From an uncultured Gammaproteobacteria bacterium (lineage in GTDB: Bacteria > Pseudomonadota > Gammaproteobacteria > Pseudomonadales > JAHEGP01), in the NCBI GenBank assembly GCA_963751595.1, contig CAVVVC010000009.1, positions 20,562 to 84,561 of the forward strand: DNA of 64,000 bases. The letters run 5' to 3'. This document shows positions 52,507 to 56,695 of the stretch, one piece after another. Under the pieces are notes generated by a model, which saw only the letters and a program-made list of their open reading frames with translations, was not told the DNA's origin and did not search any database. The first letter of the stretch is position 1, and every line of letters begins with the position of its first letter. A program made the translations under genes and the position numbers.

Positions 52507-52787
52507 TCTTTGTGTCTCTATGTCACTCCCATGGCCATAGTATAGGCAGGATTTTCAGCTTTGGAGCCCCATGAGCCGACCCTTGTTGACAATCTATCCC
52601 GGCCTGGGGGCTTTGGGTCAAGCGCGACGATCGCACCAGCGCGTTGTATGGCGGTAACAAGGTTCGAAAACTGGAATGTGTGCTCGGGCTGCCAACATTT
52701 GGTGGGCGGACCGGAGTGCTGGTGCGAAGCCTGGGTTGGTGGCAGAATCTGGGTTCTGTTCCGTGCTTCCAAAGGAGTGTGTATAAG

Positions 52788-52979
52788 ATGAAAAACGAAG
52801 GCAATGTGGATCGTATTATTCGGGTGATCGTGGGTCTCGGGTTGCTCAGCCTTGTCGTGGTGGGACCCCAGACCCTGTGGGGCCTGGTAGGCCTGGTGCC
52901 ACTGCTGACTGGCATTTTCGGGTTTTGCCCGGCGTATAAACTGCTGGGCTTGAATACCTGTCCTGTCAACAATCGCTAG
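52788..52979 (+). CDS. YgaP/DUF2892 membrane protein
   Basis: NEGNVDRIIR, GFCPAYKLLGLNTC; AGGAG upstream. Confidence 0.88.
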   Translation: MKNEGNVDRIIRVIVGLGLLSLVVVGPQTLWGLVGLVPLLTGIFGFCPAYKLLGLNTCPVNNR

Positions 52980-52982
52980 GAT

Positions 52983-53950
52983 TTGCAGCGGGCTCGTAGC
53001 CCTCGGGGGAGCAGTGGCTTCGCCACGCGGTGTTGCAGCGCGGCTCGTAGCGCCCGGGGCCCAGGGCGCCGAACCGGGATGCCGGCTCTCGCCGACGCTG
53101 CGGTGTTAAATTAAAAAGGCCCACCCTTGGGGTGAGCCTTTTTAATTGGGTACCAGAGGCCGGATTAATCCCACCCGGCCTGCGGGCCGGTTGGTCCCCC
53201 TTCGGGGCTTCGCCACGCGGTGTTGCAGCGTGGCTCGTAGCGCCCTGCGCCCGGGGCCCAGGGCGTCGAACCGGGATGCCGGCTCTCGCCGACGCTGCGG
53301 TGTTAAATTAAAAAGGCCCACCCTTGGGGTGAGCCTTTTTAATTTGGTACCAGAGGCCGGATTAATCCCACCCGGCCTGCGGGCCGGTTGGTCCCCCTTC
53401 GGGGCTTCGCCGCGCGGTGTTGCAGCGCGGCTCGTAGCGGCTTGCGCCCGGGGCCCAGGGCGTCGAACCGGGATGCCGGCTCTCGCCGACGCTGCGGTGT
53501 TAAATTAAAAAGGCCCACCCTTGGGGTGAGCCTTTTTAATTTGGTACCAGAGGCCGGATTAATCCCACCCGGCCCGGGGCCGGTTGGTCCCCCTTCGGGG
53601 CTTCGCCGCGCGGTGTTGCAGCGCGGCTCGTAGCGGCTTGCGCCCGGGGCCCAGGGCGTCGAACCGGGATGCCGGCTCTCGCCGACGCTGCGGTGTTAAA
53701 TTAAAAAGGCCCACCCTTGGGGTGAGCCTTTTTAATTTGGTACCAGAGGCCGGATTAATCCCACCCGGCCCGGGGCCGGTTGGTCCCCCTTCGGGGCTTC
53801 GCCGCGCGGTGTTGCAGCGCGGCTCGTAGCGCCCTGCGCCCGGGGCCCAGGGCGTCGAACCGGGATGCCGGCTCTCGCCGACGCTGCGGTGTTAAATTAA
53901 AAAGGCCCACCCTTAGGGTGAGCCTTTTTAATTTGGTACCAGAGGCCGGA
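52983..53950 (-). repeat. tRNA-linked tandem repeat array, 196/197-bp unit, 4 full copies plus a partial copy
   Basis: (T/G)GGTACCAGAGGCCGGA recurs at 53148, 53345, 53542, 53738 and 53934 (spacings 197, 197, 196, 196). Confidence 0.95.
53894..53933 (-). terminator. Intrinsic terminator of tRNA-Leu, repeated in every array unit
   Basis: Minus strand reads AATTAAAAAGGCTCACCC-TAA-GGGTGGGCCTTTTTAATTT. Confidence 0.85.
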
Positions 53951-54020
53951 CTCGAACCGGCACGCTTTTAAGGGCGGGGGATTTTGAATCCCCTGTGTCT
54001 ACCAATTTCACCACTCTGGC
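53934..54020 (-). tRNA. tRNA-Leu(CAA)
   Basis: GCCAGAGTGGTGAAATTGGTAGACACAGGGGATTCAAAATCCCCCGCCCTTAAAAGCGTGCCGGTTCGAGTCCGGCCTCTGGTACCA: CAA anticodon, long variable arm, encoded CCA. Confidence 0.97.
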
Positions 54021-54091: not shown

Positions 54092-54172
54092 CAACAAAGG
54101 GGTGGCCGGATGCTGGATTTGGCTGGCGATTTTCGCTACCCTTGCCGGCCTTTCTCCAACCGGCCTGGCGGC

Positions 54173-56695
<2,523 letters not shown>

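What the first reader, a model, noticed from the sequence alone, without database searches (positions are those of the whole stretch)
52983..54020. Array of structured ~197-bp units behind tRNA-Leu(CAA), each ending in the tRNA's 3' end
Seen: 4 full copies and a partial one. On the tRNA strand each unit reads terminator, about 140 nt of GC-rich hairpins, then TCCGGCCTCTGGTACCA, the tRNA's last 17 nt including CCA. The most distal copy ends CCC. No integrase or cas gene is in the window. Established: E. coli tyrT carries 178-bp repeats containing the tRNA 3' end that yield rtT RNA. Inference: readthrough and processing could release a series of CCA-ended small RNAs; alternatively the array supplies extra or decoy att sites for tRNA-Leu-targeting integrative elements.
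Basis: partly seen in the sequence, partly recalled or inferred. Interest (0 to 1): 0.72.

Follow-up and report, generated by a model that had tools for sequence, protein, structure and literature searches.

The report
tRNA-linked repeat array, DNA-type hairpins
Behind a leucine tRNA gene sit four and a bit tandem copies of a gene-less hairpin element that ends in the tRNA's own tail; it is a distant relative of the still unexplained tRNA-linked repeats of E. coli and likely spreads as a small folded piece of single-stranded DNA rather than working as an RNA.

Summary
The array is real: four 196-197-bp units and a partial fifth behind tRNA-Leu(CAA). Each unit is a terminator-like hairpin, a mirror copy of the tRNA's T-arm, a hairpin module and the tRNA's last 17 nt. 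It is a diverged member of the E. coli tRNA-linked repeats (TLR; tyrT/RtT). Rfam RtT misses it. A model built from 40 other gammaproteobacterial cores finds the four units (18-21 bits, weak) and 16 E. coli K-12 sites at tRNA or 5S loci. This genome has the module at nine tRNA loci. The largest array lacks CCA tails, and five copies lie in front of a tRNA, inside copies of its 5' end. Relatives carry free copies. Loops are mostly c-GNA-g, known as DNA-stable hairpins (60 in 37 cores, 2 on the other strand). Best reading (0.55): a non-autonomous module handled as folded single-stranded DNA, then expanded by recombination. No enzyme was found and no transcript data were usable. CCA-ended small RNAs are possible but probably not the conserved point. 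Decoy att sites are disfavoured. This scan has reported such arrays before on other DNA (81 notes), some with the same reading.

The parts
53934..54020 (-). tRNA-Leu(CAA) gene, the only one of this anticodon in the assembly
   Evidence: ARAGORN; Rfam RF00005 53.6 bits
54061..54091 (-). likely tRNA promoter: TG-n-TATAAT at about 54072-54064 followed by a GC-rich stretch
   Evidence: read from the sequence; the consensus scan did not call it; inference
53738..53933 (-). unit 1 (196 bp)
53894..53933 (-). unit 1: bidirectional terminator-like hairpin (19-bp stem with A and T runs); same at 53698-53737, 53502-53541, 53305-53344, 53108-53147
   Evidence: (I12-I15)
53855..53893 (-). unit 1: imperfect mirror copy of the tRNA's acceptor 3' strand and T-arm, GAGAG motif, and hairpin H1 ending in a direct copy of T-stem-5' + TTCGA
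   Evidence: I11: 48-nt arms, 71% complementary
53755..53854 (-). unit 1: hairpin module H2-H5 with GCGAAGC and CCCGAAGGG (c-GNA-g) loops, placed where the T-loop would be
53738..53754 (-). unit 1: copy of the tRNA's last 17 nt with CCA; same at 53542-53558 and 53345-53361; 53148-53164 ends CCC
53542..53737 (-). unit 2 (196 bp)
53345..53541 (-). unit 3 (197 bp)
53148..53344 (-). unit 4 (197 bp), tail ends CCC
53016..53147 (-). partial unit 5: terminator, mirror arm, H1, shortened H2, H3; no tail
52644..52979 (+). flanking gene, YgaP-like membrane protein, converging on the array (context only)
   Evidence: PF11127 E 4e-23
54152..55258 (+). flanking gene queA, divergent from the tRNA, followed by tgt (context only)
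   Evidence: PF02547 and PF01702

Best explanation
The array is a tandem run of a tRNA-linked repeat whose core is a gene-less hairpin module, likely a small mobile element handled as folded single-stranded DNA by an enzyme encoded elsewhere, and likely multiplied at this site by recombination between the copies. Shown: the unit layout; sequence-and-structure kinship with E. coli TLRs; arms and tails that match whichever tRNA lies next to the module; c-GNA-g loops on one strand; the same module in T-loop copies, in tRNA 5'-end copies and away from tRNAs; 0, 1 or 4 full units at this locus within the genus. Inferred: (1) the module sits in a duplicated piece of a hairpin-forming target (here the T-loop, between positions 58 and 59/60), which leaves an intact tRNA upstream; (2) the mirror arm folds back on the tRNA's T-arm or on the unit's own tail and so rebuilds a duplex copy of the target in single-stranded DNA; (3) unequal recombination or slippage changes the copy number; (4) read-through RNA is a minor by-product here, falling at each terminator. 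The enzyme is not identified; a HUH-type transposase or a recombinase acting in trans is a guess by analogy.
For: Kinship: model R1 (40 cores, none from the window's genus or E. coli) scores the four units 17.9-21.2 bits, against 10.6 for the best other match in the window, and the tyrT/V repeats 68-74 bits. It finds 16 sites in E. coli K-12, at tRNA-Tyr, Pro, Ser, Arg, Lys or 5S loci. Arms track the target: arm-tail pairing scores 163.5 against 106.2 +/- 6.7 in shuffles, n = 43; with one locus per tRNA type, 44 against 29.5 +/- 3.8, n = 12. The arm's last base is C in 6 of 7 loci whose tRNA has G59 and T in 40 of 44 with A59. DNA-type loops: 60 stem-closed c-GNA-g hairpins in 37 tRNA-linked cores found by a pattern that did not ask for them, 2 on the other strand, 1 in 20 chance hits; all four middle bases are used. 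d(GCGAAGC) melts at 76.5 C and the RNA r(GCGAAAGC) at 39 C (PMC13037366, passages). Mobility: modules behind tRNA-Arg(TCT) and tRNA-Arg(CCG) of this genome score 0.97 against each other and 0.69-0.76 against congeners. Five module copies split tRNA-Ser(GCT) 5'-end copies. A tRNA-Arg-like copy is split in its T-loop by the module (L254). 6 of 7 hits in G005 and 8 of 9 in G015 have no tRNA in the fetched stretch. Copy number at this locus: half a unit in G004, 1.5 in G001 and G003, 4.7 here.
Against: No transposase or recombinase is linked: R1 finds nothing credible beside 4 Y1 transposase, 7 integrase and 2 reverse-transcriptase loci of this genome. The window's units are weak matches (E 0.098 for the only one listed in the whole-genome search), and the seed pattern was designed from the window and E. 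coli units, so three short motifs are shared by construction. Members behind E. coli 5S genes are transcribed and bind Hfq and CsrA (PMC8144298). 25 of 59 cores have a GGA-containing loop by a loose count. 46 of 62 tails are kept nearly exact. The G59 cases come from only three tRNA species, and 9 further loci gave no new G59 case. Kin are not independent in any of these counts. Only 4 of 56 viral-contig pattern hits were real elements, all host-side, so no vehicle was seen.
Confidence: 0.55

Rival explanations
1. The units are small-RNA genes: transcription reads through the tRNA terminator, processing releases about 140-200-nt structured RNAs with a tRNA-like 3' end, and these have a regulatory role.
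For: E. coli RrA/B/F, which R1 also finds, are made by read-through of a terminator with 87% efficiency, are processed, and bind Hfq and CsrA (PMC8144298). RtT-family RNAs gave Northern signals in Actinobacillus (PMC4986893, passages). The helices covary (192 cells changed on both sides against 84.8 shuffled) and G-T pairs favour the sense strand. 46 of 62 tails are near exact.
Against: A strong terminator-like hairpin precedes each unit here, and 45 of 61 spacers elsewhere have one, so distal copies would be scarcely expressed. 15 of 62 tails have decayed; the six-copy Arg(TCT) array lacks CCA. The module occurs upstream of a tRNA and free. Stem-closed cGNRAg (3) and cUNCGg (0) loops are not enriched on the sense strand, whereas cGNAg loops number 88 against 4.9 in shuffles. 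The window's module has no GGA loop. The rtT starvation phenotype was retracted (PMC8144298 introduction).
Confidence: 0.22
2. The arrays are by-products with no selected role or mobility of their own: a hairpin-rich hotspot next to a highly transcribed tRNA promotes template switching and slippage, which make the mirror arm and the duplications.
For: Copy number is erratic and arrays end in decaying partial units. 5 of 6 congeners have R1 hits but at different tRNAs, and G002 has none. Imperfect inverted repeats are known substrates of template-switch mutation (recalled).
Against: The GA/GA mismatch motifs and the GAAC, CCC-GNA-GGG and TAATCC elements stay almost invariant from E. coli to this order instead of being corrected. 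The same module appears at unrelated kinds of site with similar ends.
Confidence: 0.12
3. The tails are spare or decoy attachment sites for elements that integrate into tRNA-Leu.
For: tRNA 3' ends and the T-loop region are standard integration targets (PMC4383910, passages). In L116 a restriction-modification region follows the repeat's tail.
Against: In L245/L026, L070/L093 and L106 the inserted element is bounded by a tRNA fragment carrying the gene's own T-loop letters, with the repeats intact behind it. The copied tail is only 17 nt and starts after the T-loop. No second att copy was found for L116. Many tails decay.
Confidence: 0.06
4. The copy number is an assembly artefact and the real locus has one or two units.
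For: No raw or long reads were available and no contig spans the array.
Against: The units differ in linked blocks. Similar arrays of 2-6 units occur at other loci here and in congeners. Independent contigs cross a unit boundary.
Confidence: 0.05

Closest known systems
E. coli tRNA-linked repeats (TLRs): tyrT/tyrV 178-bp repeats, serX, proK, lys and arg units (Egan & Landy 1978 and Rudd 1999, known only as cited in PMC8144298)
   Same: Behind a tRNA gene, 1-5 copies per locus, ending in the 3' end of that gene; same order of parts (mirror arm, GAGAA, H1, TTCGA, module with CCCGNAGGG, TAATCC, tail) in the fetched tyrT region; one model finds both.
   Different: The tail is 17 nt, not 18-19, because this tRNA has G59. 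The module is longer and richer in G+C. A full terminator precedes every unit. The host is another order and the tRNA is Leu(CAA). BLASTN-level similarity to E. coli was not tested; the link rests on the model.
Rfam RtT (RF00391)
   Same: Models the tyrT member. One relative (L159) passes both RtT (48.4 bits, cut-off 45) and R1 (86.5 bits).
   Different: No RtT match in the window even at E <= 10 or in the genome; 1 of 20 tested family loci passes. The Rfam model covers only a corner of the family.
RrA/RrB/RrF small RNAs behind E. coli 5S genes (PMC8144298)
   Same: TLR members found by R1; lie behind a terminator and are made by read-through.
   Different: They carry GGA loops that bind CsrA; the window's module has none.
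REP/REPIN elements and their RAYT (HUH Y1) transposases (PMC3733652, passages)
   Same: Short gene-less palindromic repeats; RAYT acts on single-stranded REP DNA. In G005 the free module lies inside an inverted repeat that looks like a GTAG-type REP (label from my reading of the flanks).
   Different: The unit has no GTAG or CGTC end tag at its borders, is tied to tRNA ends, and no RAYT-like gene was found beside it; the Y1 genes here look like IS200-type elements.
tRNA-targeting integrative elements (attL/attR duplications; PMC4383910)
   Same: A tRNA 3' fragment is repeated downstream of the gene, starting in the T-loop region.
   Different: About 180 bp instead of 2-200 kb between gene and fragment, no integrase, and a mirror copy of the target inside.

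Membership tests
tRNA-linked repeats (TLR) | located directly downstream of a tRNA or rRNA gene, same strand | tested here: met
tRNA-linked repeats (TLR) | 3' end identical to the last 18-19 bp of the upstream gene | tested here: met
   17 of 17 nt in three units, 16 of 17 in the fourth; one base shorter than in E. coli because the unit has A where this tRNA has G59
tRNA-linked repeats (TLR) | one to five copies per locus, several loci per genome | tested here: met
   4.7 copies here; eight tRNA loci with downstream units in this genome, one with six copies
tRNA-linked repeats (TLR) | core homologous to the E. coli repeats | tested here: met
   R1 finds the window units at 18-21 bits (weak; E 2e-4 to 2e-3 in 78 kb), congener units at 27 and 49 bits, and 16 E. 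coli sites; seed motifs partly shared by design
tRNA-linked repeats (TLR) | co-transcribed with the tRNA and processed (shown for tyrT and RrA/B/F) | not testable with these tools
   only assembled contigs of metatranscriptomes were offered
Rfam RtT RF00391 | score at or above 45 bits | tested here: not met
   no match
RrA/B/F-type CsrA-binding TLR | GGA motifs in hairpin loops | tested here: not met
   none in the window's module
REP/REPIN (GTAG or CGTC tagged) | terminal GTAG/CGTC tag and many dispersed copies | tested here: not met
   the unit interior occurs once by BLASTN; all R1 hits at E <= 1e-3 in this genome are tRNA-linked
REP/REPIN (GTAG or CGTC tagged) | associated RAYT transposase | tested here: inconclusive
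   Y1 genes at four loci of the genome, none flanked by the module
integrative element in a tRNA gene | own tyrosine integrase between gene and displaced fragment | tested here: not met
CRISPR array | short repeats with unique spacers and cas genes | tested here: not met
   units are 97% alike along their whole length; no Cas1 in the genome
non-autonomous single-stranded-DNA mobile element (proposed mode) | enzyme that cuts and joins the folded strand; precise filled and empty sites | not testable with these tools
   only indirect signs: loops, varied sites, exchange between loci

The most novel reading that the evidence does not exclude
TLRs, RtT included, are footprints of an undescribed class of tiny non-autonomous DNA elements spread across Gammaproteobacteria. 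A 75-100-nt module of DNA-stable hairpins enters hairpin loops (tRNA T-loops, tRNA 5' ends, REP-like loops) and builds a direct and a mirror copy of its target, so that the folded single strand rebuilds the target duplex: a self-retargeting element whose enzyme is still unknown.
Probability: 0.3. Interest if true: 0.78.

Novelty: new member of a known kind. Interest (0 to 1): 0.42.

Why it matters
TLRs have been known since 1978 and have no known function (PMC8144298). This locus alone is one more member. The work around it gives a model that joins the E. coli repeats, RrA/B/F and repeats in 29 of 61 genomes searched in this order, most of them invisible to Rfam. It also gives a concrete test: treat the sense-strand DNA, not the RNA, as the working molecule and look for the enzyme. 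If that is right, an annotated 'small RNA' family is really a mobile element that rewrites its own targeting arms. If wrong, the family is still much wider than annotated.

Tried and rejected
BLASTN of the unit against its own genome found only the array, which wrongly suggested a single locus; the model found the others. Rfam at E <= 10 gave only generic hairpin matches. RNAalifold on the MAFFT alignment predicted just 7 pairs with no two-sided change, so the structure was set by hand before counting; those counts lean on my choice. The E. coli rtT core matched 1 of 50,697 phage records (a Salmonella chromosomal contig) and 29 of 72,556 plasmid records, all typed non-mobilizable and several of chromosome size; not followed further. 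The viral-contig pattern scan gave 56 hits, 52 of them judged chance by eye. RNA runs X3 and X9 have no contig inside the array; this shows nothing about expression. A test of integration order (repeat added after an island) failed: no second att copy was found in G073 or G019. Folding tRNA plus unit 1 gave the mirror arm invading the T-arm with RNA parameters but an intact cloverleaf with DNA parameters, so energy does not decide between partners. Hammerhead, hairpin-ribozyme and group II intron domain V resemblances were considered from memory and dropped for lack of their core motifs; Rfam has no such hit. Bosl & Kersten 1991 is not held, so it was not read; PMC10542128 had no RtT passage in the version served. 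Ten literature searches found no paper describing these repeats outside Enterobacterales and Pasteurellaceae or reading them as DNA elements; subscription journals are mostly missing from the library.

Full report
Observation. tRNA-Leu(CAA) lies at 53934-54020 on the minus strand, divergent from queA-tgt and converging on a YgaP-like gene. Behind it is an array of period 196, 4.8 copies, 97% matches: four full units (53738-53933, 53542-53737, 53345-53541, 53148-53344) and a partial one down to 53016. Three units end in the tRNA's last 17 nt; the fourth ends CCC. None of the genome's 8 tyrosine-recombinase matches is in the window and no Cas1 was found. Raw reads were not available. Contigs from two DNA runs of one other study cross a whole unit boundary (record 27, 249 nt, 5 differences; record 2, 226 nt, 1 difference). 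The exact copy number is unconfirmed.

Anatomy. On the tRNA strand a unit reads: a 40-nt bidirectional terminator-like hairpin; a 17-nt arm; GAGAG and a hairpin (H1) whose 3' strand copies the tRNA's T-stem-5' strand and TTCGA; a 100-nt module of hairpins; then the tail from T-loop position 60 to CCA. So the tRNA's T-arm is present again, split in the loop by the module, and a mirror copy lies upstream of it. The mirror copy continues the terminator stem and can fold back on the real tRNA end (I11: 48-nt arms, 71%). The E. coli tyrT units, fetched as and read, have the same order of parts.

Relatives. At this tRNA, congeners have 1.5 units (G001, G003), half a unit (G004) or none (G002, whose gene is 82% alike). 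An exact 19-nt pattern found 6 loci in the genome collection, 5 of them real. A gapped pattern designed from the window and E. coli units matched 27 of 301 genomes of the order and 35 of 301 of the class; a part of these are chance hits. Among first hits per locus, 37 had a tRNA within 100 nt upstream and 20 had no tRNA and looked like coding sequence; a few contig-edge or displaced loci were set aside. The tRNA-linked ones follow Leu, Tyr, Glu, Arg, Lys, Ser, Phe, Val and Gln genes and end in a copy of that gene's tail, in some cases decayed.

Family test. I aligned 40 cores, none from the window's genus or E. coli, set a structure by hand and built model R1. On that alignment 77% of cells pair against 64.7% in shuffles, with 192 two-sided changes against 84.8, and slid controls reach at most 53%; RNAalifold alone found only 7 pairs. 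R1 scores the tyrT/V repeats 68-74 bits, congener Leu units 49 and 27, and the window's four units 17.9-21.2, against 10.6 for the next match in the window. In E. coli K-12 it gives 16 hits: 4 Tyr, 1 Pro, 3 Ser, 2 Arg, 3 Lys and 3 of the 5S-linked type; one of these three was checked against the annotation, one read by sequence, one assigned by its equal score. That matches the described TLR family: 22 repeats at ten loci, 1-5 per locus, 18-19 bp of the upstream gene's end, an early function claim retracted, no known function (PMC8144298: passages and the first part of the Discussion; its supplements, which show distribution in Enterobacterales, were not opened). Rfam RtT does not match the window or genome and passes 1 of 20 family loci tested. 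R1 has hits in 29 of 61 related genomes, a few of which supplied seeds. Caveats: the window's units are weak, diverged matches, and three short motifs are shared through the seed pattern.

The same genome. R1 gives 14 hits at E <= 1e-3, all behind tRNAs: Arg(TCT) x6, Ser(TGA) x3, Arg(TCG) x2, Ser(GGA), Lys, Arg(CCG). Pro(GGG) has one more by inspection. The two Arg loci with identical tails have lost acceptor and CCA from their repeats, and their modules score 0.97 against each other but 0.69-0.76 against congeners, which points to recent exchange between loci. Modules of this genome at different amino-acid tRNAs average 0.35 (24 pairs), against 0.22 for same-amino-acid modules of other orders (14 pairs). 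A ninth locus has five module copies in front of tRNA-Ser(GCT), each splitting a copy of the tRNA's 5' end.

Arms follow the target. Pairing of the arm with tail positions 5-10 scores 163.5 against 106.2 +/- 6.7 (43 of 46 loci; three left out: one cut off, one mis-registered, one near-duplicate of the window); with one locus per tRNA type, 44 against 29.5 +/- 3.8. In 52 of 62 first units (10 dropped for lack of the anchor motif) the arm's last base is C for 6 of 7 tRNAs with G59 and T for 40 of 44 with A59, although the window's own tail has A there. This suggests pairing with the real gene, but it rests on three tRNA species, and in L055 the arm fits the unit's own diverged tail better.

DNA or RNA. 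Stem-closed c-GNA-g loops number 88 in 62 cores against 4.9 in shuffles, 2 on the other strand and 3 in the adjoining spacers; cGNRAg and cUNCGg loops are not enriched on the sense strand, and a looser GNRA count gave 48 against 27. Without the model's bias the count is 60 in 37 cores, 35 of 37 with at least one. 51 of 120 such loops with one extra pair are of the GCGNAGC type, which cannot be read as cUNCGg on the other strand. Each full unit of the window has two or three. GCGNAGC hairpins are exceptionally stable as DNA, much less so as RNA, and occur in single-strand origins (PMC13037366, passages). Against this: the E. coli 5S-linked members have the same loops and are proven RNAs that bind CsrA, and 25 of 59 cores have GGA-containing loops; the window's module has none. 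46 of 62 tails are near exact and 15 are decayed; 45 of 61 spacers hold a terminator-like hairpin.

Module away from tRNA ends. 6 of 7 hits in G005 and 8 of 9 in G015 have no tRNA in the stretch fetched. In G005 the module sits inside a short inverted repeat resembling a GTAG-type REP. In G015 several copies are flanked by site-specific inverted repeats of 20-30 bp, and three lie among repeated copies of an HsdS-like gene end (gene label from my reading). In G049 it splits the T-loop of a tRNA-Arg-like copy next to an intact gene. No enzyme is linked: R1 finds nothing credible beside Y1, integrase or reverse-transcriptase genes of this genome. One preprint reports raised 'mobilome' coverage of the tyrT region under stress (10.1101/2024.07.17.603846, one passage); tandem repeats could give that by ordinary recombination or as RNA-DNA hybrids.

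Decoy idea. In L245/L026 an island of about 4 kb with a weak integrase match (E 3e-4, under the cut-off) separates tRNA-Leu from the array, and in L070/L093 and L106 a phage-like region does the same at tRNA-Ser. The boundary fragment carries the gene's own T-loop letters, so the gene was used, not a repeat.

Verdict. A real array and a new, diverged member of the TLR/RtT kind. Membership is well supported (about 0.9). The working mode is inferred: most likely a non-autonomous module handled as folded single-stranded DNA, with local expansion by recombination (0.55); regulatory RNA 0.22; neutral hotspot 0.12; decoy att 0.06; copy-number artefact 0.05. The scan has noted such arrays before in other genomes (81 notes), several with the DNA reading; these are unchecked notes and were used as leads only. 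My note of the GNA idea predates. Ten literature searches found no printed account of this wider family or of a DNA role, within the limits of the library.

Noticed in passing
G000:C4:181050-181945 (outside the window): Five tandem 174-184-bp units between a csrA-like gene (label from my reading) and tRNA-Ser(GCT), each a copy of the tRNA's 5' end split by the same hairpin module.
   Followed up: partly
G000:C1:1010922-1011971, C1:1170717-1171198, C2:24618-24916, C1:348404-348529, C2:445474-445599, C7:218534-218662, C1:690115-690320: Further TLR units behind tRNA-Arg(TCT) (six, no CCA), Ser(TGA), Arg(TCG), Ser(GGA), Lys, Arg(CCG) and Pro(GGG).
   Followed up: yes
G000:C4:2017-2655 and C9:2017-2655: In both tRNA-Ile/tRNA-Ala spacers, tRNA-Ile(GAT) is followed by about 3.6 copies of a 172-bp unit ending in its tail, with a different core that R1 does not match.
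   Followed up: no
G000:C1:345038-345360: tRNA-Gly(GCC) is followed by a 229-bp duplication of its end, filled with 16-bp microrepeats.
   Followed up: no
L181 (G015:C1:370116-373230): Three partial copies of the 3' end of a type I restriction specificity-like gene, each interrupted at a different point by the module; resembles a reservoir of alternative gene ends.
   Followed up: partly
L232-L237 (G015) and L183, L225, L226, L228-L230 (G005): Dispersed module copies, in G015 flanked by inverted repeats that differ at each site, in G005 inside a REP-like palindrome: the best places to look for the enzyme.
   Followed up: partly
L184 (G056:C1:153748-156840): A tandem array of module fragments behind a gene that reads like rpsA, with no tRNA.
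   Followed up: no
L116:3580-4900 (G073): An insertion-sequence-like ORF of about 390 aa (IS481-like by my reading) sits in the terminator between tRNA-Ser(GGA) and its repeat; a type I restriction gene follows the repeat.
   Followed up: partly
L024:1-190: Tandem repeats of the tRNA-Leu 5' end upstream of the gene, at a contig start.
   Followed up: no
G000:C9:85317-85832: A tyrosine recombinase gene about 750 bp beyond the window's end, after the rpsP-rimM-trmD-like genes; probably housekeeping XerD (name inferred from position).
   Followed up: no
G000:C1:1027000-1059000 region: tRNA-Arg(TCT) lies about 47 kb from the tRNA-Pro/His pair, which may mark an insertion.
   Followed up: no
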